The notes beneath the pieces were generated by a model. That model did no database searches. It worked only from the letters and a program-made list of their open reading frames with translations, and was not told the DNA's origin. The position numbers and the translations under genes are program-made. DNA of 54,083 bases from a virus (lineage: Duplodnaviria > Heunggongvirae > Uroviricota > Caudoviricetes): positions 1 to 54,083 of IMG/VR virus record IMGVR_UViG_2534682338_000012, one strand, 5' to 3'. How positions within the stretch are numbered: position 1 is the stretch's first letter; each line of letters opens with the position of its first letter. This document shows, in pieces, positions 1,369-54,083 of this stretch.

Positions 1369-1444
1369 GCCGATATAGCTCAGTTGGTAGAGCAGCGCAT
1401 TCGTAATGCGAAGGTCGTAGGTTCGACTCCTATTATCGGCACCA
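1369..1444 (+). tRNA. thrW: tRNA-Thr (anticodon CGU)
   Basis: 76-nt cloverleaf-compatible sequence GCCGATATAGCTCAGTTGGTAGAGCAGCGCATTCGTAATGCG...TTCGACTCC...GGCACCA with CGT anticodon and 3' CCA; coordinates approximate to 1-2 nt. Confidence 0.9.
1399..1444. repeat. attL core (3' 46 bp of tRNA-Thr)
   Basis: Exact repeat of 41810-41855 by eye (ATTCGTAATGCGAAGGTCGTAGGTTCGACTCCTATTATCGGCACCA). Confidence 0.7.
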
Positions 1445-4170: not shown

Positions 4171-4995
4171 TCAGGCGGTGAAAGTACCAATAAAGGTTTC
4201 TACTTTGCTGTCCTTGAATTTCTCAACAAGCAGATCACGAAATTCGTTAGCCATTTCTTCCTGCACCGCCTCCAGCTGAATAATGCGCAGAACCAGTACC
4301 GGACGATCGCCAGTGATAATGCTGAGGCGTAATTTAAACGGACGTTCTTTCAGACCTTCAAACGGAATGCATTTAAATTCAAATGCCACTGGCATAATGT
4401 CTTTGGTCTTCGCTTCGACAGACTCCATCAGGGAGCGTTTGCCGCTGAAGTCATTATCTTCAAAATCAGCGGTCTGGTTTGCTTCAATCGTGATTTTACG
4501 GACCGCCGCAGCCGCTTTTGTTGCCTGAATGGTGTCACCATTAGCATCAAAGCCCACAAGGTAGTCGGCCCAGTCTTCAATCCATTCTGCCAGTGATTTC
4601 TGGGAGTTACGCTCGCCATTAACAGACAACAGAGCAGAGAACGGTGCTGTCTTTTTCAGTTTGAGAGTGGCGGTGTTATCTGCGTGACCTGGTTCATCAA
4701 TAGTACCCAGGTTAAGCACACTGACGGCACGCATATTATCAGCATCGATAAAGCAGCGGGTGCCTTCATCTGCAAGATCTTTAGAATAACGGGTAAAGTC
4801 ATCGATGCTGGCAGTGGAAAGCGCACCACGGAAACGGAAGCGATTTAAATTAAATTTTTCCAGATCATGAATGCGGAAATTCTCAGGCAATGCCACAGCA
4901 TCGGCACCAATCTTACTGATAATTTCATTAACACCCTGAGCAGAAATAATGGCATGGATTTGATTAATTGCGGTTGCGTCTAAGTTCTGAGACAT
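4171..4995 (-). CDS. YfdQ-like prophage protein (DUF2303 family)
   Basis: 274-aa ORF, GAGGA RBS; resembles the CPS-53 prophage YfdQ family by eye. Confidence 0.6.
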
Positions 4996-38926: not shown

Positions 38927-40363
38927 ATGAATGCTAAAATTTCATGTCCAATTGATGGGTATATCATAACAGATTTCATAGGAGACGGAGGGAACGGAGA
39001 TGTGTATCTTGTAACTTCAAGTTCTGGCGAGGAAGCATTCGCTTTAAAAATACTAAGAAATGTACAAGAATCAACTTATAATAGATTCAAGGTAGAAGTT
39101 AATTTCTTGAAAGATAATAAAGTAGATGGGGTAATGCCTTTGCTTGATTTTTACCTTCCAGATAATGCAAAAAAAGAACAAGCTTGGTATCTTATGCCAT
39201 TGGCTGAAAGCTTTAAAGAAAGTGTAAAGCAAAAAGATCCATTATCAATCATCTCTGAATTCATTCATCTCACTCAAACCATTATAGAACTCCATGACCA
39301 AAACATATCTCACCGGGATATAAAGCCAGATAATCTTCTATATTTGAATGGCAGGATATTTTTAGCGGACTTTGGATTGGTAAAATATCCTGAAAGAATC
39401 GAATTAACACCCGATATGCGAGACGTTGGCGCAAAATTCACAATGGCCCCAGAAATGAGACGGATAGCAAATCGTGCTGATGGGCTCCCGGCAGACATTT
39501 ACTCTCTGGCAAAATCAGTATGGATGTCTCTGACTAAAGACTATCTTGGTTTTGATGGTCAGTACAGCACAAAATCTAATATCGGATTATCAAACTACAT
39601 AAAAGAACTATATCTACCGCCCTTAGATGACCTATTAGTGCGCGCAACAGATAACGATCCGTATCAGCGACCAACTGCTGCGGAGTTTAAGACAGAACTT
39701 GAAAATTGGATAAAAATTAATAATGATTTCATCCAGCGTAATTTAACTGAATGGTTCGAAATCCAAAACCTACTATTCCCATACAGCACACCGAATAGTG
39801 TAGAGTGGACAAATAATGATGACATAATAAACATACTCAATTTAATAGCTGGAAGGGAGTCTCTAAATCACATGTTTTATCCTTCCGGTGGGGGAAGCGA
39901 TTTGATTTATGTCGAACCAGCCTCAGAAAAAGGATTTATCGCGCTTATAGTCTGTGAACGATGCGCTGAAATTTTAAAGCCCAAAAAACTTTCATTTGAA
40001 TCATTTGGTCATGATCCCGAATGGAATTATTTTCGTCTTGAATGTGAAGTAATCGAACCAATGAAAATTTCGGGTCCCGTTACTAGTTCAACGATGGATG
40101 AATACATGGTTGAAATTACGCCTGGAAATTACATACCTCCAGATTGCTGGGAAATAAATGAGTATCAAGGTAAACCTCTACCTGAAACCGCTAGAATTGT
40201 CAGCAGGTATATAAAAGGTAGTTTTGTATTTTTCTGCAAGTCATCAACTTATAACAGAATAAGCCAGACGTATAATGCTTGGCAGAATGTGGGGGAAAAT
40301 GAATTCAGAAAGCTAATCGCAAAATTTGCTCAGTATGCTTCTGCCCGAAGAACCATTAAATAA
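38927..40363 (+). CDS. Hanks-type Ser/Thr protein kinase with C-terminal domain of unknown function
   Basis: Gly loop IGDGGNGDVY, catalytic Lys (AFALK), HRDIKPDNLL catalytic loop, DFG (LADFGL), APE (MAPEMRR). Confidence 0.8.
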   Translation: MNAKISCPIDGYIITDFIGDGGNGDVYLVTSSSGEEAFALKILRNVQESTYNRFKVEVNFLKDNKVDGVMPLLDFYLPDNAKKEQAWYLMPLAESFKESVKQKDPLSIISEFIHLTQTIIELHDQNISHRDIKPDNLLYLNGRIFLADFGLVKYPERIELTPDMRDVGAKFTMAPEMRRIANRADGLPADIYSLAKSVWMSLTKDYLGFDGQYSTKSNIGLSNYIKELYLPPLDDLLVRATDNDPYQRPTAAEFKTELENWIKINNDFIQRNLTEWFEIQNLLFPYSTPNSVEWTNNDDIINILNLIAGRESLNHMFYPSGGGSDLIYVEPASEKGFIALIVCERCAEILKPKKLSFESFGHDPEWNYFRLECEVIEPMKISGPVTSSTMDEYMVEITPGNYIPPDCWEINEYQGKPLPETARIVSRYIKGSFVFFCKSSTYNRISQTYNAWQNVGENEFRKLIAKFAQYASARRTIK

Positions 40364-41809: not shown

Positions 41810-41855
41810 ATTCGTAATGCGAAGGTCGTAGGTTCGACTCCTATTATCGGCACCA
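41810..41855. repeat. attR of prophage / attL of P4-like element (partial tRNA-Thr 3' end)
   Basis: 46-bp copy of tRNA 3' end lacking the 5' half. Confidence 0.7.
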
Positions 41856-42019
41856 TCACCTAGTTTTCCCAAGTCAACCCACATCAACAAAATCATTTAA
41901 AAACATATATATTACGTTATTTTCATACGTTTGAGGTCAACCCTTGTCTCTTGAAATCAACACGCGGTTGGGGGCACAATCAGGGGCATGTTCTGTTCGG
42001 TCTAGGAAATGTGCCCCCA

Positions 42020-43210
42020 ATGATGCTGAATGCCCGCAAGGTTGAAGCTGCGAAAGGAAAAGAGAAGAGCTACAAGCTGTTTGATGGAGGTGGCCTATAC
42101 CTTCAGGTCGAACCTAATGGCTCGCGTTACTGGCGTATGAAATACCGTTTTGCTGGTAAAGAGAAACGATTGTCCTTTGGTGTTTATCCAACAGTCACAC
42201 TTGCTGATGCCAGACAAAAACGAGAAGACGCGAAGAAACTACTCGCAGCAGGTGAAGATCCCGGCGAAGTCAAAAAAGCCAAAAAGCAGGCTTTAAATGC
42301 AGCGATTGAGACACTTAACCCATTCAGAGAAGTGGCGTTAGAGTGGCACAAAATGAAATCACCCAAATGGTCTGAGGGCTATGCTTCCGACATCATTGAG
42401 GCATTCGAGAAAGACATTTTCCCGCATATTGGGCACAGACCTATAGCTGATATTCAGCCCCTTGAACTGCTTGAAGTTCTGAGGTTGATAGAAGCTCGAG
42501 GCGCTATGGAGAAAGCGAAGAAAGTCCGTCAGCGATGCGGTGAAGTTTTTCGCTATGCCATCGTAACGGGTAGGGCAATCTACAATCCGGCACCGGATCT
42601 TGCCAGTGCGATGCAAGGACATGAAGCAGTCCACTATCCATTCCTCAAAGCCAACGAACTACCGGAGTTCTTTAATGCCCTTAATTCTTATTCAGGAAGT
42701 CCAATTGTATTGTTGGGGGCGCATTTACTTATCCTGACAGGTCTACGAACTGGAGAACTACGAGCAGGTGAGTGGCGAGAGGTGGATTTTGATAATGCGG
42801 TGTGGGAGATCCCAAAAGAACGTATGAAAATGCGTAGGAGCCATATTGTCCCGTTGTCAAAACAAGCATTATCCCATCTCAAAAGTTTGAAAGAACTAAC
42901 TGGGAACTACCCGCTGATGTTCCCTGGACGCAACGATCCTAGCAAATTTATGAGTGAAGCAAGCATTAATCAGGTGTTTAAACGTATTGGATATGCAGGG
43001 CGTGTTACGGGGCATGGTTTCAGGCATACGATGAGTACAATCCTACATGAGAAAGGATTTAACAGCGCTTGGATTGAAACCCAGCTTGCTCATTCGGACA
43101 AAAACTCTATTCGTGGAATTTATAACCATGCCCAATATCTCGAAGGGAGAAGAGAAATGATGCAATGGTATGCTAATTATTTATCTGAGCTAATTGGTAC
43201 TCATAAATGA
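42020..43210 (+). CDS. P4-type tyrosine integrase
   Basis: N-terminal LNARKVEAAKGKEKSYKLFDGGGLYLQV (DUF4102-like arm-binding domain), C-terminal HGFRHT...Y catalytic region; track start is TTG, ATG chosen. Confidence 0.85.
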   Translation: MMLNARKVEAAKGKEKSYKLFDGGGLYLQVEPNGSRYWRMKYRFAGKEKRLSFGVYPTVTLADARQKREDAKKLLAAGEDPGEVKKAKKQALNAAIETLNPFREVALEWHKMKSPKWSEGYASDIIEAFEKDIFPHIGHRPIADIQPLELLEVLRLIEARGAMEKAKKVRQRCGEVFRYAIVTGRAIYNPAPDLASAMQGHEAVHYPFLKANELPEFFNALNSYSGSPIVLLGAHLLILTGLRTGELRAGEWREVDFDNAVWEIPKERMKMRRSHIVPLSKQALSHLKSLKELTGNYPLMFPGRNDPSKFMSEASINQVFKRIGYAGRVTGHGFRHTMSTILHEKGFNSAWIETQLAHSDKNSIRGIYNHAQYLEGRREMMQWYANYLSELIGTHK

Positions 43211-44156: not shown

Positions 44157-44447
44157 ATGTTATCTAAACATGATAATACTACTTTGCAACGACCTTCAAT
44201 GGATTCTCTGATCGATATGAAGTTTATTACTTCCGATTGTTTATTAAGTGATAAATGGATTTATCGATTGATTTCTCTGAATCGCTTTCCAAAACCTATA
44301 AAAATAGGTCGGATGTCACGATGGCGCGCTGCTGATTATTATAAGTGGCGAGATGGGTTTGAAGAAAACTCAGGTCAACATTTTGAGGGAATGAGAAATA
44401 AGGCAAGAGCAATTAATAAAGGGAATAGATTATCACCTACTCCCTAA
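44157..44447 (+). CDS. AlpA-family phage regulatory protein
   Basis: C-terminal region resembles AlpA HTH (RLISLNRFPKPIKIGRMSRWRAADYYKW); true start may be internal (~44217). Confidence 0.55.
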   Translation: MLSKHDNTTLQRPSMDSLIDMKFITSDCLLSDKWIYRLISLNRFPKPIKIGRMSRWRAADYYKWRDGFEENSGQHFEGMRNKARAINKGNRLSPTP

Positions 44448-44479: not shown

Positions 44480-44653
44480 TTAGCCTTTAGGGTCAATCCC
44501 GCGTGATTGGAGTTCTTTGCGTAAAATTCTTTTAATCCAAGTTGCCAACGCGCTATCTCCATCTTTGCGCATTTCGTTTTCGAGTTGCAACCTAAAATCG
44601 TCGGTAAGACGCATTTGGAATGGTGGAGAACGTTTCTCTTGTGGTGTTGACAT
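44480..44653 (-). CDS. small ribbon-helix-helix-like protein (57 aa), not in ORF track
   Basis: Minus-strand ORF MSTPQEKRSPPFQMRLTDDFRLQLENEMRKDGDSALATWIKRILRKELQ...; beta-strand/helix/helix pattern; two copies of CATGGTAATTACC palindrome at and upstream of start. Confidence 0.4.
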   Translation of the reverse strand: MSTPQEKRSPPFQMRLTDDFRLQLENEMRKDGDSALATWIKRILRKELQSRGIDPKG

Positions 44654-44784
44654 GGTAATTACCCTAGAATATGATGACTACATGGTAATTACCATTGTAA
44701 GTATAGTTCGCTTGTAAAAGCAATGCCCGATTGTGCGGGAACACAAATCGGGCATTTAACCAACCGTTATAAGAGGTAACGAAG

Positions 44785-44961
44785 ATGGCTAAACAGAAGT
44801 GTACCTGGTTATTTGCGGCGATCAACCGCAGTCAACGCAATGCCCGTCCTGTGATGTTAAGGATCACCGCAGATAACGAGCGGTCAGCGCGGCGCAGACT
44901 TGCCCCGGACTATGTACTGAGCTTTGCCGGGCGCATTCCCTGCGGAGGTGAACATGCGTAA
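44785..44961 (+). CDS. small protein (58 aa), possibly Icd-like
   Basis: AAGAGG RBS; MAKQKCTWLFAAINRSQRNARPVMLRITADNERSARRRL...; translationally coupled to next gene; family assignment from memory, low certainty. Confidence 0.35.
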   Translation: MAKQKCTWLFAAINRSQRNARPVMLRITADNERSARRRLAPDYVLSFAGRIPCGGEHA

Positions 44962-45629: not shown

Positions 45630-46009
45630 ACCAGCCGCAGGTTTCCATTTTCCCGGCAGAAATGACCACCGCGCTTTACCGGCGGGCTATTGCTTCAGCA
45701 TGGCGGCAGAAAATGCTGAACGAAACTGGCAGTGATCAGTATGGTCCGCACAGCCTGACGGTGGAGCGTATTGAAATGGCCATTGCGCTGCATATCGAGT
45801 GCGTACTGATTAACGAGTACGGCGAAGTGCAGGGCGCCGCTACCGCGCTGGCACTGCTGACTGACATGCTGGAGCCGTCACTGCTGACCGCGCCGCCGGT
45901 ACTGACCGCGCGCGGCTGTGAAGTGATGGCGGAGATGTACCGCACGCTTCCGGCGGCCTTTGATGACTTCTGCAGTACCGGTGTGACGTTGTATGAGGGG
46001 GAAGTATGA
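45626..46009 (+). CDS. hypothetical protein
   Basis: 127-aa ORF, stop-start overlap with neighbours. Confidence 0.45.
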   Translation: MNQPQVSIFPAEMTTALYRRAIASAWRQKMLNETGSDQYGPHSLTVERIEMAIALHIECVLINEYGEVQGAATALALLTDMLEPSLLTAPPVLTARGCEVMAEMYRTLPAAFDDFCSTGVTLYEGEV

Positions 46010-48678
46010 CAATACGGACGGTTACGCAGATTTCAGCCGCCGCACGGGGGAAATGGCCCGTTATTCTGCAGATGCTGCGTATTGATGTACCTGAAAACGG
46101 CAGGCACGGTCCCTGCCCGAAATGTGGGGGCAAGGATCGTTTTCGCCTTGATGACCTTGACGGGCGCGGGACGTGGATCTGCAGCCAGTGTGGCAATGGT
46201 GACGGTCTGGATCTGGTTAAGCTCGTAACCGGTTACAGCGTCAGAAAGGCTGCGCAGGAGGTGGCGCAGGTGCTTAATGTGCCGGATGTGCAGGAACTGC
46301 CTGTTAAGCCTGCCAGACAAAAAGCCCCTAAACGAGACATGGGTCTTACCGTGGCGGCGCTGATGAAAGAGAGCCACACGGGAGAAAGCGCCTATCTGAC
46401 AGGAAAAGGGTTCGCCGGATACCCGGCCTCTCTGACCGGAAGCGTGCAGCATATCAGCGGTAAGGATTTTCCTGCCGGTTCCCTGCTGTTACCACTCACG
46501 ACCAACACCGGAGCCGTGACCGGTGCACAGCTTATCGCCCCGACGGGTGAAAAAAGCATACTGCCCGGCAGCACGATGAAAGGCGCGTTTGTGTCGCTCA
46601 GCCCGTTACCGTCTGAACCACCGGTACAGGTGGTGATTACCGAAGGTTACGCTACGGCGCTGACGGTAAGCCAGCTCACTGCCGGATGCGTAGTGGCTGC
46701 CATATCTGCGGGCAACCTGCCCAATGTGGCGCAGTCGCTGCGGGCACGCTGGCCTGAGGTAAAAATTATCATCGCCGGTGATAACGATTTTCAGGACGGG
46801 GGTGAGAATCCCGGCAGAGCCTTTGCTGAACGGGCGGCAAAAGCTGTTGGCGGCTGGATGACGCTGCCACCAGGAGAGATTAAGGCTGACTGGAATGACT
46901 TTCATCGGGAGCACGGTATTACCCGTGCCCGTGAAGCCTTTCGCAACGGTCTGGTACTGTGCGGGGAAGGCCGCACGCAACTGCCGCACGGGTTCCGTCT
47001 TACCCAGGAATATCTCTGGTATGAAAAGCAGGTACAGCGCAACGGTGAGACGGAGATCCAGAACGTCAAAATATGCAGCCCGCTGCGCGTGACGGCAATT
47101 ACCTGCGATGCCGATGGCGGTAACTTCGGACGACTGCTGGAATGGGAAGATACGTGGGGTGAGTGTCGCCGCTGGGCGATGCCAATGGAAATGCTGAGCG
47201 GCAGTGGTGAGGAACTGCGCCGGGTTCTGCTGGTTAACGGGCTGTCTTATATCAGCACCACCGGTGAGGCACGCGCACGCCTGATGGAATATATCTCACT
47301 GTGTAAACCGGAACGCCGCGTGACCTGCGTCAGTCGTACTGGCTGGCATGGTCAGGTTTACGTCCTGCAGGATGAGGTCAGCGGTGAAGGTGCAGAGGGT
47401 GTCATTCTCCAGACCACTTCCGTGCAGGGGCGTGATTTCCGCGTGTCGGGCACAACAGAGGAATGGCGGGAGCATGTATCCCGCTACTGTACCGGCAACT
47501 CCCGCGTGGCATTTGCTGTCAGCCTGGCCTTTGCTGCACCACTGTTACGGCTGGTTGGTATGGACGGCGGCGGCTACCACCTCAAAGGGGAATCGACAGA
47601 CGGTAAGACCACCACCATGAAAGCGGCAACCTCCGTCTGCGGCGGGCCTGACTACTGGCAGACATGGCGGGCCACCGGCAACGCGCTGGAGGGATGCGCC
47701 AGCCGCCGTAACGATGCCGCCATGATGCTTGATGAGATCCGGGAAGTTGACGGACGCGAGGCAGGCAATATCGCCTACATGCTGGCAAACGGTCAGGGCA
47801 AGGGCCGTGCCGGTACGGACGGTGAGCTGCGTACCCGTAAGCAGTGGCGCCTGTTGTTCTTTTCAACTGGCGAGTTGTCTCTGACCGAACATGCGGCAAA
47901 GGCCGGTGAGCGTACTTTTGCCGGGATGGAAGTCAGGATGATCCAGATCCCCAGCGATTCCGGGAAGTTTGGCGTTTTTGAGGAGCTGCACGGCTTCGAC
48001 AGCGGCAAGGCTCTGGCAGAGCATCTTGAATGGGCCACGTCCTGCTACTACGGTTCGCCGTTCCGGGAGTGGCTGAAAGCACTGACCGCTGATCTTAACG
48101 GACTAACGGCACAGGCAAAATCGCTGATGAAGGAATATGCTGCCGCCCTGACTCCGAAAGATGCAGGCAATCAGGTGGGCCGGGCTGTGAACCGCTTTGC
48201 ACTGGTGGCGATGGCAGGTGAACTGGCAACCCGTCTGGGTATCACCGGCTGGCCTGAGGGTGAAGCACTGCGGGCAACCCGCGTCTGCCTGAACGCATGG
48301 CTGAAAGATCGCGGGCACACCGCCAATCAGGAAGATATCGCCGCACTGGAGCAGGTTCGCAGTTTCTTTACCGCGAATCAGTACAGCCGCTTTGCAGACT
48401 GGTATGACGAGCGCAACCGCCCCGGCAATATGGTGGGCTGGCGCAGGGTGGAGAAAGGCAGTACCGCGCAGGGCACGGAAGCTGTCACTACGTTCTATGT
48501 CATGCCGTCCGGCTGGAAAGAAATCTGCAGGGGATTTGACCCGCGCAAGGTGGCGCGTCTGTGCGCAGATCGTGGATACCTGCTGCCCTCCACTGATGGC
48601 AAACTCCAGACAACCATTCGCCCGCCAGAGATGAATCCCCGCAGGCTCTATGTCTTCAACAGCGAGGTGCCGGGTTAA
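46006..48678 (+). CDS. P4 alpha-like primase-helicase
   Basis: 890 aa; N-terminal zinc-binding CPKCGG...CSQCGNGDG, TOPRIM-like acidic region, central P-loop (GESTDGKT) helicase region. Confidence 0.85.
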   Translation: MTIRTVTQISAAARGKWPVILQMLRIDVPENGRHGPCPKCGGKDRFRLDDLDGRGTWICSQCGNGDGLDLVKLVTGYSVRKAAQEVAQVLNVPDVQELPVKPARQKAPKRDMGLTVAALMKESHTGESAYLTGKGFAGYPASLTGSVQHISGKDFPAGSLLLPLTTNTGAVTGAQLIAPTGEKSILPGSTMKGAFVSLSPLPSEPPVQVVITEGYATALTVSQLTAGCVVAAISAGNLPNVAQSLRARWPEVKIIIAGDNDFQDGGENPGRAFAERAAKAVGGWMTLPPGEIKADWNDFHREHGITRAREAFRNGLVLCGEGRTQLPHGFRLTQEYLWYEKQVQRNGETEIQNVKICSPLRVTAITCDADGGNFGRLLEWEDTWGECRRWAMPMEMLSGSGEELRRVLLVNGLSYISTTGEARARLMEYISLCKPERRVTCVSRTGWHGQVYVLQDEVSGEGAEGVILQTTSVQGRDFRVSGTTEEWREHVSRYCTGNSRVAFAVSLAFAAPLLRLVGMDGGGYHLKGESTDGKTTTMKAATSVCGGPDYWQTWRATGNALEGCASRRNDAAMMLDEIREVDGREAGNIAYMLANGQGKGRAGTDGELRTRKQWRLLFFSTGELSLTEHAAKAGERTFAGMEVRMIQIPSDSGKFGVFEELHGFDSGKALAEHLEWATSCYYGSPFREWLKALTADLNGLTAQAKSLMKEYAAALTPKDAGNQVGRAVNRFALVAMAGELATRLGITGWPEGEALRATRVCLNAWLKDRGHTANQEDIAALEQVRSFFTANQYSRFADWYDERNRPGNMVGWRRVEKGSTAQGTEAVTTFYVMPSGWKEICRGFDPRKVARLCADRGYLLPSTDGKLQTTIRPPEMNPRRLYVFNSEVPG

Positions 48679-48699
48679 GGCTTTGCGTGAGTCTTATTT

Positions 48700-48900
48700 A
48701 TTAAGGGTAACAGGTGAAACAGGTGGAACAACCGTATTTTACAGGGCTGAATCTGTTCCACCTTCTGAAATAGTGAGGTGGAACAGATGTAACGCCAGCC
48801 AATCCGCTGTTCCACCTTGTTACCCGCGATGTTCCACCGGTGCAGTGTATATAAATGCTTTATAAAACAAATGGGTAACACATGTTTCACCTGTTACACC
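48700..48900. repeat. ori/crr-like iteron cluster
   Basis: At least five copies of GGTGGAACA/TGTTCCACC in both orientations plus inverted GTAACAGGTGAAAC...GTTTCACCTGTTAC. Confidence 0.5.
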
Positions 48901-49078
48901 GCATCAGGGACATAAAGCAGACTGAAACAGAGGGCATTTTTATCTGGCTGGCTTTCATAGCCACGTCTGAATAACCGCAAGCGCCCGTTGTACCAGCCAC
49001 CACACACTGAGCACCGATAGTGTGCTTGTGTCAGCCACGACACAATTGACGTAACGAACCAACCCGACAGGAGAAGTC

Positions 49079-49822
49079 ATGAACAACACCGCAGTGAATA
49101 ACAACCTTTCCACTTTTCCGGCTGTAACGCAGCGGGCACTGGAAACCATGAACACAGCCAGAAACGCATGGCTTGAAGCACGTCGTCAGCAGAAAGCGGC
49201 AGCGGATAATATTGCGACAATCCGCCAGCGTCGCGCTGAAATGGAAGCCACGACGAACACACTGAATGAGGAGTGGCGCACGCTGTTTCGTGAAAGTCAG
49301 GGCGTGGTCTCAAAGGAAATGAAAAAACTGCGCACGGAAATTGCGCTGGGACGAGAAACTCTTGAGGATTTTGATGAGCTGCTGGAGGCTCAGGAAAGCG
49401 AAAATGCACTTTTGCCGCAGAAAGCTGCGGAATTAGCCGGAAAGTATATCCACGCGCATAACATCCTTGTGGATATTCGCGCAAAACAAATCTGGGAAGA
49501 TTTTATGCAGTCGCATGGAAAAGCGCTTATTCAGACGCTGAGCCTGCTTAAATCCACAATGGGCCGGGAAGCCAGTGCCGTTGTGGGTGTGGTGAATTCA
49601 GTTAATGACCCGGACACAGTGCTGAAAGACTTTATTCATAAACATATCACCAGACCGGCTCTGGCTAACGATGCGATGCCTGAGCAGGACCCGGTGTTTA
49701 AACTGGCGGGAGTTGCCCCGGATTATGCGGCGCGTCTGGATTTCAGTAATCAACTCTCTCCGGCAGCTATGCATAAAATTAAGGTTCGTCAGGAACTTGC
49801 TGAGAAGGAGAAAGCAGTATGA
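49079..49822 (+). CDS. possible Sid-like capsid size determination protein
   Basis: 247 aa, alpha-helical/coiled-coil character, immediately upstream of Psu; size close to P4 Sid. Confidence 0.35.
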   Translation: MNNTAVNNNLSTFPAVTQRALETMNTARNAWLEARRQQKAAADNIATIRQRRAEMEATTNTLNEEWRTLFRESQGVVSKEMKKLRTEIALGRETLEDFDELLEAQESENALLPQKAAELAGKYIHAHNILVDIRAKQIWEDFMQSHGKALIQTLSLLKSTMGREASAVVGVVNSVNDPDTVLKDFIHKHITRPALANDAMPEQDPVFKLAGVAPDYAARLDFSNQLSPAAMHKIKVRQELAEKEKAV

Positions 49823-50370
49823 CGGCCCGAGGCACGCCTGACCAGGCACTTACCAGTTTTCGGAATGCCCGTATTCTGTGGGCCGGACATAATGAGAGCC
49901 GAAAAGCCGTTGAACAACAGATAACATCTCTCCTCGCTGCCACAGAAAAACCAGCAGATTATGCCCGACAGCTCGAATTACTGCGGGAACGTCTGGATGT
50001 GCTGAAATGGCAAATTAACTGTGCTGCGCGCGAATGCATTTACTCGCAGCATTTACTGATGGAGGCCTGCACAGAAGCCGCTCTCAGCAATTTTATGCAG
50101 GCGAATGGGGCAGCCCTGACATCTGCACTGGCTCCGTTCCTGAAGGGGCGCGGAGGGGTTGACGTTGCGTCCCGTATATTACGCAGTGCTCTGGTTCGCC
50201 AGCTGGCAATAACACCGCCTGAAATTGCCGGGGATTATCGTGAGATCCTGGATGAATCCGGTTTGATGCCTGACCCCGGGATGATTCGTGATTGCCAGGG
50301 GTCTTACACCCCGGCACAACATCTGCGTTTTCAGCAACGCCTGAATGACATTAACGATATACAGGAGTGA
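49819..50370 (+). CDS. psu: polarity suppression protein Psu
   Basis: 183 aa; blocks recalled from P4 Psu (LKWQINCAAR, FMQANGAALTSALAPFL, YTPAQHLRF). Confidence 0.65.
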   Translation: MTARGTPDQALTSFRNARILWAGHNESRKAVEQQITSLLAATEKPADYARQLELLRERLDVLKWQINCAARECIYSQHLLMEACTEAALSNFMQANGAALTSALAPFLKGRGGVDVASRILRSALVRQLAITPPEIAGDYREILDESGLMPDPGMIRDCQGSYTPAQHLRFQQRLNDINDIQE

Positions 50371-50375
50371 TATTA

Positions 50376-50648
50376 ATGGCACTTAAATGTCCGGAATGCG
50401 GTACAGTTGCACACGCCAGAACAGCAGCCTATGAAGCTCCGTCAGTTAAACGCTCGTGGTATCAGTGCCAGAATCTGGAATGTTCCTGCACATTTACGGC
50501 ACTGGAGAGTGTGGATAAGATAATCATGAAACCCCGGCGCAATGAACAGCTATCAGACAAAGCACAATCCCCGGAAAAACAACAGCAAACGCTCAATCGC
50601 TATGGCTCCGCGTCAAAACTGTCAAGCCGTCAGCAGATTCCTGTCTGA
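50376..50648 (+). CDS. Ogr/Delta-family zinc-finger late activator
   Basis: CPECG...AHARTAAYEAPSVKRSWYQCQNLECSCTF matches Ogr C2C2 motif. Confidence 0.8.
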   Translation: MALKCPECGTVAHARTAAYEAPSVKRSWYQCQNLECSCTFTALESVDKIIMKPRRNEQLSDKAQSPEKQQQTLNRYGSASKLSSRQQIPV

Positions 50649-51177
50649 TTAGAAAAAAACGCCCACGTAATCCTGGTCGAGTACCGGGATTTTTAACACC
50701 TTTTCCCTGGCTGGCCTGAGAGCGCATGAGTGCATGTCTATGGCGCATGAAAATGCATGAGCCTTATGCACCTTTTTTGAGGCGAAAACCTTTGTGTGGT
50801 GGTATCTGAGACGATTTATGGCATGCATGAAAACCAGTCTGTTAAGCGAAGCGGGCAGGCGTGCGGGGCTGCCCGCGATAGCACTGAAATCAACAGGTAA
50901 AACTATTTTTTATTAGTAGTGTAAACTGGGAGCGAACGGACTCTGTCATGCTGTATCATCCTGTAATGATCAATCTCACTGGTGTCTGTATAGATGTCAA
51001 CCAGTTTCGACGGCTGTGTCTAACTTAAAATTAGAGCTTAATCAAGTTTTTCCTCGAGAATACTTTTAAAAGACAATGAGTTATGAGAAAGTGGAGGCTG
51101 TCACGTTGGTCATATGTAACACTCCACGTAATCTTAATCGCTTTGTAAATGTTGAAGTTAATTAATAGGGAAAACTG

Positions 51178-52137
51178 ATGCTAACCAGGGCTGAAAATAT
51201 AAGAAAAATCACAAGCTATTTAGCTATTCTCTCAAGAGAGGTTGAGATTAGTGCCTCCCTCAATCTTTTGGATATCAACGTTCAAGCGGAATCTTTTTAT
51301 AGAGATTTCTTAAACTTATGTTATGGATATAATTTAAGAAATACCAATAGTGAAGAGCAAAACTACCAAGCAATAGATCTTGCTGATGAAGATCGGAAGA
51401 TTGCTATACAAGTAACTTCAACTTCTGACTTGGGAAAAATTAAGAATACAGTTGATGGATTTATAAAAAGTAAGCAATATGAAAAATATGATAGACTAAT
51501 TGTACTGAATATAACTGAAAAGAAAAAGCACAGATTGAAAGAGTATGGAATAGCCGGGTGCTATGTAATTAATATCAAAGATGATGTATGGGATTATAAG
51601 GATATAATTAGAAAGATAAACGATTTGAATGATTGTGATATATCAACAATATGCTCATTTTTGGAACGTAATATTAATACTAAAGCTGCTGATAAACCGC
51701 CGAAAGAAGTCACAACTATGTTTGCGATGATTGAATTATTGAGTGATGATGCTCACCCATTGGCAGGAAATGGATTTATTGAAGAGCCTAATCCTGAAAA
51801 TAAAATATATAAAAGATTTTCAGATTATTCAGAGCGGTTGATTGGCTTATATACTGGGTTAGCTCCATTATATAGTGGGATATTTAAGTCAATAAAAGAA
51901 CAGAGCGATATTGGTATCGTAAGGTACCAAAAGATGAGTTTGTATTTAGAGTCATTTAGTGATAAGGTCTTAAGAAGCCATGGTGGAGATCCTATCTTGG
52001 CGCTTAATTATTTAAAAGAATATTTTTCTAAACAACTGAGCCAGAGAAATGTAGATTACGATGAAACAGCTATCAAATTTTTCTTAATTGAGAATTTAAT
52101 TGCATGTAACGTCTTTCCTAATTCGGAGATTCTTTGA
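51178..52137 (+). CDS. hypothetical cargo protein (319 aa), candidate effector/specificity component
   Basis: AT-rich ORF, first gene of tightly coupled three-ORF cassette after P4-like late genes. Confidence 0.55.
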   Translation: MLTRAENIRKITSYLAILSREVEISASLNLLDINVQAESFYRDFLNLCYGYNLRNTNSEEQNYQAIDLADEDRKIAIQVTSTSDLGKIKNTVDGFIKSKQYEKYDRLIVLNITEKKKHRLKEYGIAGCYVINIKDDVWDYKDIIRKINDLNDCDISTICSFLERNINTKAADKPPKEVTTMFAMIELLSDDAHPLAGNGFIEEPNPENKIYKRFSDYSERLIGLYTGLAPLYSGIFKSIKEQSDIGIVRYQKMSLYLESFSDKVLRSHGGDPILALNYLKEYFSKQLSQRNVDYDETAIKFFLIENLIACNVFPNSEIL

Positions 52138-52384
52138 TGTTAAGTTTTTTTTCGAAAGATGAGGATTTGACAAAATCCCCTCCTGTTGTAGGGGCTAAAA
52201 TTCTTAATTTATTTGACGAAACAAAAAAGAAAAAATTAGTATTTTCGATTTAGCAAAAGAATTAAAGAAAAACAACTCTCTAGGAGTGCGTGCAATTTAT
52301 TTTGGAATGGTCTTTCTTTATACTCTTGATCTTATCGATTTCGATGAGCCATATGTGATAAATAAAAATGTTAAGAATAAATAA
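52137..52384 (+). pseudogene. small middle ORF (~80 aa if contiguous) interrupted by frameshift in A-rich tract
   Basis: ATG overlaps upstream stop (TGATG); frame 0 gives 38 aa then stop; adjacent frame continues ...ISIFDLAKELKKNNSLGVRAIYFGMVFLYTLDLIDFDEPYVINKNVKNK to overlap the next gene. Confidence 0.35.
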
Positions 52385-54083
52385 ACTATATAGCATACCA
52401 GAATCTTTTGAGCCAGTAAGCTTTGATAGTGGCATCAATATCATCTTAGGTGAAAAAGATGTTTCATCTAACAAAACTAATGGAGTGGGTAAAACTCTTT
52501 TAATAGAGTTTATTAATTTTTGTTTATTAAAAGAATTTAAGTCGAGTAGAGTTTCTAAAATTCCTCATTCTGATTTTTCGAAAGACATTTTGATATGCCT
52601 TGATTTTAATATTGATAATATTAACATTATATCCCAGCGTTCTATTGGGAAACATAATGAGCCAACACTTGTAATAAATGGAAAAACAATAGAGTTTAGT
52701 GGATTAGATGATGCGTTATCTCATTTAAGCAATCTTATCTTTAAGAATAGTAAGGGTATACTTCATCCATCATTTAGAGCGATGCTGGGGCCTCTGATAC
52801 GCGATGAACGATCTGAATTTAAATCTATTGTTGAGTGCTTCGACACAAAATTACATATACCTGCTGACTATACTCCTCATCTTTATTTGTTAGGTATTGA
52901 TATTGCTCCCTATAAAGAGGCAAAGATTTTACAACGAGAAATAGATGATTTATCAACTACAAAAAATAAAATAAAGAGAGATATTGAATTTCTGACGGGA
53001 AAAAAAATTAGTTCTGCAAAGGCAGAGGTTAATGATCTTAAATCAAAAGTTGAACATATCAGAAACGCTATGGATGCATTTGATAGCGATAGCAGTTATG
53101 AACTTATCAAAGATGAAGTAGAAGAATTAGAAAGTTCTTTAGAAGAGTTGCGGAATAAAAGAACAATACTTAAGTTAGAGCTTTCAAGAATAAATGCTCT
53201 CGTTGGTGAAGTATACATAAATGATGATGAAGTAGTTGAAATTTATAATAAATTTAAAGTTGGATTAGGTGATGCTATCAAAAAAGAACTTAATGATGTT
53301 ATTTCATTTAAGAAAAAAATAGATCACTTCCAAAACACTTTGTTAAATACGCGAAAAGAAACATTACTTTCTGAATTGCGTAAGATATCAGATAAGCTAT
53401 ATACAGTAAATAGACTTTATAAAGAAAAAGCTAGTGTTTTTGAGCAGGCGGGGGGGTTTAAAAGCCTGAAAATTTTAATAATGACTTATCAGAAAAAGTT
53501 AGAGGAGTATTCACAGTTATCTTCATTGCTTAAAAAATTTGAAGATTTCGATTCTAAATGGAAAGTTAAGAAGTCAGAACGCTCTTCTATGATAATTTCG
53601 TTAGATCTTTCTATTATGGATAACGAAAAAACGATTGAATCTTTTGAGGAAACCATTTTATCAATCCATGAATATGTTTTTGGAAATAGAAAGTGTTCTT
53701 TCGAAATTAAGGCGACAGAGAAGAAAGAAACTATCTCAATGGATTTAAGAATTGATGATGACGGTAGTCATAGTAATGAGCGAGAAAAGGTTTTCTTTTA
53801 TGATTTGGCTCTTTTACTTACAGAAGAAACGTTTCGACGTCACCCTGGATTATTAATTCATGATAATATTTTTGATGTGGATCAAGATACATTAATTAAA
53901 AGCTTGAATTATTTGGCAGAGAAATCCAGTTGCTTAAATGATGCACAATATATTTTGACGTTAAATAGCGACAAAATTAGTGAAATTGATAAAAGAGATT
54001 TGAAACTAGATATTAACTTCTATAAGCGAGCTTCGTTAACTAAAATAAATAGATTCCTGGGAAGGCATTATCAAGAAATATAA
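52368..54083 (+). CDS. SMC/ABC-like P-loop ATPase with long coiled coil (571 aa)
   Basis: N-terminal Walker A-like NGVGKT, ~200-aa K/E/L-rich heptad region, C-terminal hydrophobic-D stretch (GLLIHDN) resembling Walker B. Confidence 0.6.
   Translation: MLRINKLYSIPESFEPVSFDSGINIILGEKDVSSNKTNGVGKTLLIEFINFCLLKEFKSSRVSKIPHSDFSKDILICLDFNIDNINIISQRSIGKHNEPTLVINGKTIEFSGLDDALSHLSNLIFKNSKGILHPSFRAMLGPLIRDERSEFKSIVECFDTKLHIPADYTPHLYLLGIDIAPYKEAKILQREIDDLSTTKNKIKRDIEFLTGKKISSAKAEVNDLKSKVEHIRNAMDAFDSDSSYELIKDEVEELESSLEELRNKRTILKLELSRINALVGEVYINDDEVVEIYNKFKVGLGDAIKKELNDVISFKKKIDHFQNTLLNTRKETLLSELRKISDKLYTVNRLYKEKASVFEQAGGFKSLKILIMTYQKKLEEYSQLSSLLKKFEDFDSKWKVKKSERSSMIISLDLSIMDNEKTIESFEETILSIHEYVFGNRKCSFEIKATEKKETISMDLRIDDDGSHSNEREKVFFYDLALLLTEETFRRHPGLLIHDNIFDVDQDTLIKSLNYLAEKSSCLNDAQYILTLNSDKISEIDKRDLKLDINFYKRASLTKINRFLGRHYQEI

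What the first reader, a model, noticed from the sequence alone, without database searches (positions are those of the whole stretch)
48700..48900. Iteron cluster downstream of the alpha-type primase
Multiple GGTGGAACA/TGTTCCACC copies in both orientations, plus a larger inverted repeat, resemble the octamer-type ori/crr repeats bound by P4 alpha. This defines the replication origin of the satellite.
Basis: partly seen in the sequence, partly recalled or inferred. Interest (0 to 1): 0.35.

Follow-up and report, generated by a model that had tools for sequence, protein, structure and literature searches.

The report
Satellite replication origin with 9-bp iterons
The repeat cluster is real and is almost certainly the replication origin of a P4-like phage satellite, read by the tail domain of the primase-helicase gene just upstream; it is a well-known kind of origin (as in staphylococcal and E. 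coli pathogenicity-island satellites), so an ordinary feature, correctly spotted but linked to the wrong half of the P4 protein.

Summary
Observation confirmed. Bases 48704-48900 hold 5 exact GGTGGAACA/TGTTCCACC copies, 3 one-mismatch copies and 4-5 GGGTAACA-type variants (about 12 sites, both orientations), an outer 19-nt inverted repeat, and a 30-bp AT-rich tract (48844-48873). Only 0.48 exact copies are expected by chance in the whole 54 kb.

Interpretation partly right. The cluster starts 26 nt after the stop codon of an 890-aa primase-helicase. Only its N-terminal primase third resembles P4 alpha (38% identity). Its helicase (DUF927) and C-terminal domain match SaPIbov1 Rep and SCCmec Cch, not alpha's D5/SF3 helicase and DNA-binding domain.

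In 61 of 74 homologous loci, from Enterobacterales to Burkholderiales, the 300 nt after the stop codon hold at least 4 copies of an 8-mer, against 1% of background windows. Site positions and orientations are conserved while the repeated word changes by lineage. The helicase plus C-terminal domain is the only gene module shared by all these loci.

The element has one cluster, unlike P4's bipartite ori plus crr.

Best reading (about 0.8): a SaPI/PICI-type origin that loads its own helicase. No binding or replication experiment exists. It is a new member of a known kind, of modest interest.

The parts
48704..48730 (+). Left outer iteron triplet, tandem at 9-bp spacing: AGGGTAACA (48704), GGTGAAACA (48713), GGTGGAACA (48722)
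   Evidence: the same triplet sits at the same offset from the stop codon in relatives
48754..48762 (-). Single iteron TGTTCCACC (reverse orientation)
   Evidence: it is one arm of a perfect 13-nt inverted repeat with 48776-48788 (I4); an equivalent single '-' site lies about 77 nt after the stop codon in nearly all enterobacterial relatives
48777..48794 (+). Iteron pair: GGTGGAACA (48777) plus degenerate GATGTAACG (48786; GGTGGAACG in close relatives)
48808..48838 (-). Three reverse-orientation sites: TGTTCCACC (48808), TGTTACCC variant (48818), TGTTCCACC (48830)
48844..48873 (.). AT-rich tract (AGTGTATATAAATGCTTTATAAAACAAATG), the candidate DNA-unwinding site
   Evidence: GC 0.30 in 48840-48879 against 0.55-0.68 in the flanking gene. 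It is the least stable 30-mer of the intergenic region and sits at the 96th percentile within the element. An AT-rich 30-mer lies 155-172 nt after the stop codon in most enterobacterial relatives.
48873..48900 (.). Right outer sites: GGGTAACA (48873, +), TGTTTCACC (48883, -), TGTTACACC (48892, -). The last two, with adjacent bases, form the right arm of the 19-nt outer inverted repeat.
   Evidence: (I1, I3, I17)
46006..48678 (+). Primase-helicase (890 aa), the presumed initiator. Domains: Zn ribbon aa 32-68, Toprim aa 209-304, DUF927 helicase aa 330-612 (Walker A motif GESTDGKTT, aa 528-536), C-terminal domain aa 621-890.
   Evidence: Pfam. P4 alpha similarity only for aa 5-316. PDB profile hits to SaPIbov1 Rep 8tch (3e-17) and Cch 5dgk (9e-16) over aa 415-648. 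Identical to a protein cluster with 2186 member sequences.
48391..48657 (+). Predicted winged helix-turn-helix (aa ~796-884), the putative iteron reader. Putative recognition helix aa 846-855; wing strands aa 869-871 and 879-884.
48989..49044 (+). Two TGT-N12-ACA dyads (48989-49006, 49027-49044), 38 bp apart. Probably the Delta/Ogr-activated late promoter of the sid-psu-delta operon. A neighbour of the origin, not part of it.
   Evidence: (D3). Conserved in relatives of both iteron types. P4 has TGTGTCAGGGCTGGCACA upstream of sid. The TGT-N12-ACA consensus for Ogr/Delta sites is recalled from the P2/P4 literature.
41810..41857 (+). attL of the satellite: a 48-nt repeat of the 3' part of tRNA-Thr (thrW, 1369-1444)
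   Evidence: In E. coli VG12A2 the same element sits directly at thrW.

Best explanation
Bases 48704-48900 are the single replication origin (ori) of a P4-like satellite integrated at thrW. It is a SaPI/PICI-type origin. About twelve 9-bp iterons (consensus GGTGGAACA, with GGTGAAACA and GGGTAACA variants) are laid out as three forward, one reverse, two forward, three reverse, then a 30-bp AT-rich tract, then one forward and two reverse.

Inferred mechanism: the winged-helix end of the C-terminal domain of the primase-helicase encoded immediately upstream binds the iterons. Hexamers, probably two, assemble on the array. The AT tract melts, and the DUF927 (MCM-like, SaPIbov1 Rep-type) helicase loads itself. 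The fused P4-alpha-like Toprim primase domain then primes synthesis.

Shown here: the repeats and their statistics; conservation of position and layout; the concerted change of the word; and sequence and fold homology of the protein to SaPIbov1 Rep and Cch. Inferred: binding, melting, hexamer stoichiometry, and replication itself.
For: (1) Enrichment: 5 exact copies against 0.48 expected in 54 kb, and 8 sites with at most 1 mismatch in 188 nt.

(2) Position: the cluster starts 26 nt after the stop codon of the primase-helicase. This is where SaPI and PICI origins lie (PMC9371898, PMC7581432, PMC6092414).

(3) Family-wide conservation: 61 of 74 homologous loci have at least 4 copies of an 8-mer in the 300 nt after the stop codon, against 21 of 2163 background windows. 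The word differs by lineage (GGTGGAACA, GGTGTAACA, GGGGTAACA, CTGGTAACA, GTGGATACA, TGTAGTACA, GGTGTAACG, GCAGGGGCA, TTGGGGACA). The offsets and orientations of the sites are kept.

(4) Concerted change: proteins 91% identical (E. coli type versus Pantoea type) have every copy changed G to T at the same columns, while the spacers diverge. In Xenorhabdus L022/L023 (96.5% aa identity) the flanks are 87-95% identical, but the roughly 200-nt origin drops to 55-60%, with GGTGTAACA replaced in place by CTGGTAACA.

(5) In L022/L023 and L024/L027, 5 of 14 and 4 of 8 substitutions downstream of aa 205 fall in the last 45 residues, within the predicted wHTH. Residue 866 is K with every GGTG[G/T]AACA and GGGGTAACA/TGGGTAACA word and R with every CTGGTAACA-class word in 43 sequences.

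(6) The helicase is homologous to SaPIbov1 Rep and Cch. The C-terminal domain model alone retrieves the same two structures, plus the oriT-binding wHTH protein TcpK.

(7) Helicase plus C-terminal domain is the only module shared by all loci with iterons. sid, psu, delta, alpA and even the primase domain are absent or swapped in many of them.

(8) There is only one cluster in the complete element, and an AT-rich, locally least stable tract lies inside it.
Against: There is no experimental evidence for this element or for any DUF927-type enterobacterial satellite. Binding of the C-terminal domain to the iterons is inferred from homology and covariation only.

Thirteen of 74 homologous loci show no downstream repeats. 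No single alignment column separates GGTGG-type from GGTGT-type proteins, so the covariation is partial and confounded by phylogeny, apart from the two near-isogenic pairs. Those pairs also differ in some upstream genes.

The AT tract is off-centre and is not the least stable site of the whole element. TM-scores to 8tch and 5dgk are low (0.38-0.45), and the model rests on 46 sequences. In this window two of the sites are degenerate compared with relatives. In P4, the cluster in the equivalent position downstream of alpha is crr, an auxiliary site.
Confidence: 0.8

Rival explanations
1. A crr-like auxiliary site: the cluster is bound by the initiator and is needed in cis, but initiation and unwinding happen at a separate ori elsewhere, as in P4, where crr lies directly downstream of alpha.
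For: In P4 the repeat cluster directly downstream of alpha is crr (4291-4590) and the true ori lies 4.5 kb away, upstream of sid.
Against: No second cluster of GGTG[GA]AACA, GGTGAACA or GGGTAACA exists in the visible part of the element, or in the complete copy in E. coli VG12A2. No 120-bp direct repeat like that of crr is present. The cluster contains its own AT-rich tract. The initiator's helicase and C-terminal domain are of the SaPIbov1 Rep type, whose origins are single clusters directly after rep (PMC9371898). Here the intergenic region is both 'downstream of primase' and 'upstream of sid', so it occupies the positions of both P4 sites.
Confidence: 0.06
2. A transcriptional operator array: the repeats are binding sites that regulate the downstream sid-psu-delta late operon, or autoregulate or terminate the primase operon, and are not an origin.
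For: The cluster lies about 90 nt upstream of two TGT-N12-ACA dyads and the sid-like gene. No intrinsic terminator was found between the primase gene and sid. Iterons in plasmid origins often also act as operators (general knowledge).
Against: Iteron clusters follow the helicase plus C-terminal domain gene in loci that have no sid, psu or delta within 4 kb, including Burkholderiales and a Desulfohalobiaceae MAG. The layout is fixed relative to the upstream stop codon, not to the downstream gene. A second, regulatory role is not excluded.
Confidence: 0.05
3. It is an origin, but the iterons are read by another protein, not by the C-terminal domain of the primase-helicase. That protein could be a small satellite-encoded one (for example the DUF5375 protein or the 94-aa ORF upstream), or a helper-phage or host factor.
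For: The near-isogenic pairs with different iterons also differ in upstream genes. No column of the primase-helicase cleanly separates the GGTGG and GGTGT types. Rep1 of SaPI1 discriminated poorly between origins in vitro, and the authors raised the possibility of an unidentified specificity factor (PMC9371898).
Against: DUF5375, orf94, orf129 and alpA homologues are absent from many loci that keep the iteron array. Only the helicase plus C-terminal domain is universal. The C-terminal domain ends in a wHTH fold like the oriT-binding TcpK and like the SaPIbov1 Rep C-terminal domain. Substitutions that accompany word switches cluster in that wHTH.
Confidence: 0.06
4. Chance or decaying repeats with no function.
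For: Two sites in this copy are degenerate relative to close relatives.
Against: 0 of 100 shuffles reach the observed count. The region is at least 90% identical in 326 of 5426 complete E. coli genomes. In the 10-sequence alignment of close relatives the iteron columns are invariant while the spacers vary. The feature recurs in 61 of 74 homologous loci.
Confidence: 0.01

Closest known systems
SaPIbov1 Rep and its ori (staphylococcal pathogenicity islands; structure PDB 8tch)
   Different: The iterons here are 9-mers rather than penta- or hexanucleotides. There are about 12 sites in a fixed asymmetric layout, with the AT tract off-centre. The primase is fused to the helicase and is P4-alpha-like (Zn ribbon plus Toprim). 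The host is Gram-negative, and the hijacking module is P4-type (sid/psu/delta).
EcCICFT073 pri-rep-ori (E. coli PICI; function tested in PMC6092414)
   Same: Same species and same layout: int, alpA, icd-like, pri-rep, then iterons right after the stop codon, all transcribed one way. Cloned pri-rep-ori supported plasmid maintenance, and deleting ori reduced it (PMC6092414).
   Different: Its Pri-Rep is of the D5_N/DUF5906/Pox_D5 type, that is, the helicase type of P4 alpha, not DUF927. Its iteron is GGTAGACA/TGTCTACC. It carries lambda-like capsid genes, not sid/psu/delta.
Phage P4 alpha with ori and crr
   Same: The N-terminal Zn-ribbon/Toprim primase domain is 38% identical. The repeat word is similar (P4 GGTGAACA; here GGTG[G/A]AACA). 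The element carries sid-, psu- and delta-like genes.
   Different: The helicase and DNA-binding domains are unrelated. P4 has two clusters 4.5 kb apart, and crr contains a 120-bp direct repeat; here there is one cluster. The gene order differs: here primase, iterons, then sid, all on one strand.
SCCmec Cch (DUF927 MCM-like helicase, PDB 5dgk)
   Different: The papers read here report specific DNA binding downstream of the gene only for the unrelated Cch2, not for Cch (PMC7581432). Cch has no fused primase.

Membership tests
SaPI/PICI-type origin (iteron origin next to the Rep gene) | Lies immediately 3' of the rep or pri-rep gene | tested here: met
   First site is 26 nt after the stop codon at 48678. 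The same holds in 61 of 74 homologous loci.
SaPI/PICI-type origin (iteron origin next to the Rep gene) | Six to twelve short iterons, in both orientations | tested here: met
   5 exact, 3 one-mismatch and 4-5 variant sites, about 12 in all, on both strands. The word length is 9 nt rather than 5-6.
SaPI/PICI-type origin (iteron origin next to the Rep gene) | AT-rich tract flanked by iterons that point in opposite directions | tested here: met
   AT tract at 48844-48873, flanked by TGTTACCC/TGTTCCACC (-) on the left and GGGTAACA (+) on the right (I17). The tract is off-centre: about 9 sites to the left and 3 to the right.
SaPI/PICI-type origin (iteron origin next to the Rep gene) | Initiator is a Rep-type hexameric helicase with a C-terminal winged-helix domain | tested here: met
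   Sequence homology to 8tch and 5dgk. The C-terminal domain model matches 8tch, 5dgk and the wHTH protein TcpK. Oligomeric state was not tested.
SaPI/PICI-type origin (iteron origin next to the Rep gene) | Initiator binds the iterons specifically, and pri-rep-ori drives autonomous replication | not testable with these tools
   Only indirect support: concerted iteron change together with C-terminal domain substitutions.
P4 ori/crr system | Type 1 octamer TGTTCACC/GGTGAACA | tested here: not met
   No GGTGAACA in 48679-49078. The words here are 9-mers with one extra base.
P4 ori/crr system | Two clusters (ori and crr) about 4.5 kb apart, with crr built of 120-bp direct repeats | tested here: not met
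   A single cluster in the window and in the complete element of VG12A2. No long direct repeat.
P4 ori/crr system | Initiator has alpha's D5_N/SF3 helicase and Pox_D5 C-terminal DNA-binding domain | tested here: not met
   Pfam finds Zn_Ribbon_Prim, Toprim_3 and DUF927 only, against alpha's D5_N, DUF5906 and Pox_D5. hhalign of the C-terminal domain against alpha's C-terminus: probability 0.06%.
P4 ori/crr system | Alpha-type Zn-ribbon/Toprim primase domain | tested here: met
   38% identity over aa 5-316, E 1e-48.
Classical iteron-plasmid origin (RepA/pi/TrfA type) | 17-22-bp direct repeats in one orientation, DnaA boxes, and a WH1-WH2 Rep protein | tested here: not met
   The repeats are 9-mers in both orientations. 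There is no DnaA box with at most 1 mismatch in 48679-49078. The initiator is a helicase fusion.
P4-like satellite (element level) | Integrase, alpA-like regulator, primase, and sid, psu and delta homologues in one att-bounded island | tested here: met
   Integrase 41951-43210; weak AlpA match at 44157-44447; Psu-family proteins at 49079-49822 and 49819-50370; Ogr/Delta-like protein at 50367-50648; attL at 41810-41857. The gene order differs from P4, and no P4 cos 19-mer was found.

The most novel reading that the evidence does not exclude
The family is a natural series of specificity swaps. A fixed layout of about 12 sites is kept while the 9-bp word is rewritten in place, accompanied by a handful of substitutions in the wHTH (for example K866R, and residues 846, 850, 867, 870). 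Copies that share one genome usually carry different words: Pantoea stewartii L004 versus L045, P. leporis L013 versus L051, Enterobacter intestinihominis L012 versus L041, and Caballeronia LZ035 L060 versus L063. This would mean that origin words diversify to keep co-resident satellites from cross-firing or competing (incompatibility avoidance), and that a simple, readable recognition code exists for Rep-type winged helices.
Probability: 0.3. Interest if true: 0.55.

Novelty: new member of a known kind. Interest (0 to 1): 0.33.

Why it matters
It fixes the annotation of a very common E. coli element: at least 90% identical copies of this origin occur in 326 of 5426 complete genomes. It shows that this P4-like satellite does not replicate with a P4-alpha-type origin-recognition system. 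Instead it uses a chimeric initiator, a P4-type primase fused to a SaPIbov1 Rep-type self-loading helicase, with a single PICI-style origin. That links the two best-studied satellite families through a shared, swappable replication module. It also offers well-defined natural variants for working out how Rep-type winged helices read iterons. The origin principle itself is already known.

Tried and rejected
- A second, crr/ori-like cluster: searched for the words in the window and in the complete element of VG12A2; none found.
- A single residue separating GGTGG-type from GGTGT-type proteins: no discriminating column. Coarse per-segment identity also gave no clear signal.
- Homology of the C-terminal domain to P4 alpha's DNA-binding end: BLASTP and hhalign were negative. 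A PDB profile search with the C-terminal domain alone found nothing by sequence.
- DnaA boxes, sigma-70 promoters and terminators, and Rfam families in the intergenic region: none.
- The GGTAATTA cluster at 44.65 kb, considered as a second iteron set: it is a pair of palindromic operators.
- P4 cos 19-mer: not found. The P4 genome shares only a 182-nt, 73%-identical stretch with this element, at the start of the integrase gene.
- Phage-database DNA searches with the origin region and with the region after delta: no match.
- The Ubeda 2007 and Ziegelin 1993 papers were not held in the library, so their content is cited through PMC9371898, PMC7581432 and PMC8628076.

Full report
**1. The observation**

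The 400-nt intergenic region 48679-49078 lies between an 890-aa ORF (46006-48678, + strand) and a 247-aa ORF (49079-49822, + strand).
- Exact GGTGGAACA occurs five times in 48722-48838, two forward and three reverse. It occurs once elsewhere in the 54-kb window. The chance expectation for the whole window is 0.48, and 0 of 100 shuffles reach the observed count.
- Allowing R at position 5 adds 48713(+) and 48883(-). Allowing one mismatch adds 48892(-).
- A related word, GGGTAACA/TGTTACCC, occurs at 48705(+), 48818(-) and 48873(+).
- A degenerate GATGTAACG at 48786 corresponds to GGTGGAACG in close relatives.
- The 'larger inverted repeat' is real: 19-nt arms at 48707-48725 and 48879-48897, 95% complementary. 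It is made of the outermost iteron triplets.
- Between the inner and outer right-hand sites lies an AT-rich tract at 48844-48873. GC is 0.30 there against 0.55-0.68 in the flanking gene. It is the least stable 30-mer in the intergenic region.

**2. The element**

- The 3' 48 nt of tRNA-Thr (1369-1444) is repeated at 41810-41857, so the window holds two islands in tandem at thrW.
- The second island runs from 41858 beyond the window end. All of its listed genes but one small ORF lie on the + strand: a tyrosine integrase, a weak AlpA-like regulator, an Icd-like protein, small ORFs including DUF5375, the primase-helicase, two Psu-family proteins (sid-like and psu-like), an Ogr/Delta-like zinc-finger protein, and then SMEK and DUF2326 genes.
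- The same element sits directly next to thrW in E. coli VG12A2.
- The origin region is at least 90% identical in 326 of 5426 complete E. coli genomes.

It is therefore a P4-like satellite by gene content, but its gene order resembles that of Gram-negative PICIs: int, alpA, pri-rep, origin, then the hijack genes.

**3. The neighbouring protein is only one-third 'alpha'**

- Pfam finds Zn_Ribbon_Prim, Toprim_3 and DUF927.
- P4 alpha aligns only to residues 5-316 (38% identity, E 1e-48).
- Alpha itself has D5_N, DUF5906 and Pox_D5 after its primase domain. So does the validated EcCICFT073 Pri-Rep.
- A profile of 15 homologues hits two solved structures over residues 415-648: SaPIbov1 Rep (8tch, E 3e-17) and SCCmec Cch (5dgk, E 9e-16).
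- An AlphaFold model of residues 621-890 alone (46-sequence alignment, mean pLDDT 84.9) retrieves the same two proteins as its best Foldseek hits: 8tch E 2.9e-5 and 5dgk E 6.5e-3, both with probability 1.00.
- A profile of the C-terminal domain has no relation to alpha's C-terminal 199 residues (hhalign probability 0.06%).

According to PMC9371898 and PMC7581432, SaPI Reps are self-loading hexameric helicases. Their C-terminal winged helix recognises 6-12 iterons located immediately downstream of rep, with an AT-rich region among them.

**4. Comparative evidence**

A genome-collection scan returned 78 loci encoding homologues, from 100% down to 37% identity and from Enterobacterales to Burkholderiales and other MAGs.
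- In 61 of 74 loci with enough sequence, the 300 nt after the stop codon contain at least 4 copies of some 8-mer, counting both strands. Only 21 of 2163 background windows from the same loci do.
- The word differs by lineage: GGTGGAACA, GGTGTAACA, GGGGTAACA, CTGGTAACA, GTGGATACA, TGTAGTACA, GGTGTAACG, GCAGGGGCA, TTGGGGACA and others.
- The layout is conserved. Measured from the stop codon: tandem forward copies at about 26-45, one reverse copy at about 77, forward copies at about 99-108, reverse copies at about 130-160, an AT-rich 30-mer at about 155-172 in most enterobacterial loci, and reverse copies at about 200-220.
- The E. coli-type and Pantoea-type proteins are 91% identical. Between them every copy carries the same G-to-T change, in invariant columns, while the spacers diverge.
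- Xenorhabdus L022 and L023 proteins are 96.5% identical. Their DNA is 87-95% identical on both sides, yet the roughly 200-nt origin is only 55-60% identical. GGTGTAACA is replaced in place by CTGGTAACA.
- In that pair, and in Proteus L024/L027, 5 of 14 and 4 of 8 substitutions beyond residue 205 fall in the last 45 residues. They lie at 846 and 850 (start of the putative recognition helix), at 866, 867 and 870 (wing), and at 883 and 887.
- Residue 866 is K in all 21 sequences with GGTG[G/T]AACA or GGGGTAACA/TGGGTAACA words. It is R in all 22 with CTGGTAACA-class words. Apart from the near-isogenic pair L022/L023, this correlation is confounded by phylogeny, and no column separates GGTGG from GGTGT.
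- A tblastn presence matrix shows that the helicase plus C-terminal domain is the only module common to all loci with iterons. sid, psu, delta, alpA, the small upstream ORFs and even the primase domain are missing or replaced in many.

**5. Mechanism**

Shown: a statistically extreme, positionally conserved array of about 12 sites with an internal AT tract. It is tied to a Rep-type helicase whose C-terminal domain ends in a wHTH, and its word changes in concert with that domain.

Inferred: the wHTH of each protomer reads one 9-mer; hexamers (probably two, given about 12 sites) assemble; the AT tract melts; the DUF927 helicase loads itself; and the fused Toprim primase primes.

No DnaA box, Rfam family, sigma-70 promoter or terminator lies in the region.

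**6. Rivals**

- A crr-like auxiliary role is unlikely. There is only one cluster in the complete element and no 120-bp repeat.
- A purely transcriptional role is unlikely. The array follows the helicase gene even where no sid operon follows.
- A different iteron-binding protein cannot be strictly excluded, because the near-isogenic pairs also differ upstream. However, no other protein is shared across the loci.

**7. Comparison with known systems**

- Functionally and by membership tests this is a SaPI/PICI-type origin. The closest experimentally tested example in E. coli is EcCICFT073, whose cloned pri-rep-ori supports plasmid maintenance (PMC6092414). Its initiator is of the other (D5/alpha) helicase family and its iteron is GGTAGACA.
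- It is not a member of the P4 ori/crr system. The octamer, the bipartite arrangement and alpha's helicase and DNA-binding domains were all tested and not met.
- The similarity of the word to P4's GGTGAACA remains an unexplained resemblance.

**8. Verdict**

The repeats were correctly observed and correctly called an origin, but attributed to the wrong protein family. This is a new member of a known kind. Interest is modest. It is raised slightly by the chimeric initiator, the single origin in a P4-like satellite, and the clean natural series of iteron-word switches.

Noticed in passing
window 1369-1444, 41810-41857 and 1445-41809: Two islands sit in tandem at thrW. The 3' 48 nt of tRNA-Thr is repeated at 41810-41857. 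A separate island of about 40 kb lies between the tRNA and the satellite; one of its genes is a Ser/Thr protein kinase at 38927-40363.
   Followed up: partly
window 48989-49006 and 49027-49044: Two TGT-N12-ACA dyads 38 bp apart, just upstream of the sid-like gene and conserved in relatives. They look like a Delta/Ogr-activated late promoter with two activator sites, as recalled for P4 Psid.
   Followed up: partly
window 44651-44694: Two copies of the palindrome CATGGTAATTACC, 30 bp apart. They lie between a small reverse-strand ORF (44480-44653) and the Icd-like gene, and are probably operators of a small repressor that controls the early operon.
   Followed up: partly
window 44719-44790 (-): Weak Rfam match to the SymR antitoxin RNA (31.6 bits, E 0.009, below the gathering score). 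It overlaps a strong stem-loop (AATGCCCGATT...AATCGGGCATT) in the leader of the Icd-like gene. It could be an antisense or immunity RNA, or a terminator.
   Followed up: no
window 50649-51177 (cos-like motif at 50854): No P4/P2 cos 19-mer occurs anywhere in the element. A loosely similar GGCAGGCGTGCGGGGCTGCCCGCGATAGCAC lies after the delta-like gene. The region has no match in the phage collection, so the packaging site and the helper phage are unknown.
   Followed up: partly
L004 vs L045; L013 vs L051; L012 vs L041; L060 vs L063; L059/L064/L065: Copies of this replication module that share one genome usually carry different iteron words, for example GGTGGAACA and GGTGTAACA in Pantoea stewartii ATCC 8199. 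One exception is Caballeronia pedi L059 and L065, which share GGGTTACA. This may reflect incompatibility avoidance.
   Followed up: no
L049, L050, L053, L065, L068-L080 and proteins P0160-P0170: The helicase plus C-terminal domain module occurs with different or absent N-terminal primase domains (PriCT-2-containing, Toprim-less, or 570-620-aa helicase-only forms). The primase part is therefore a swappable module.
   Followed up: partly
window 51178-54083: SMEK-domain and DUF2326 genes follow the delta-like gene, in the position where P4-like satellites are reported to carry variable anti-phage hotspots (PMC9122126 abstract). Not examined.
   Followed up: no
L002 2991-3688: In E. coli VG12A2 the otherwise identical satellite has an IS1A insertion in the 274-aa ORF that follows the integrase.
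   Followed up: no
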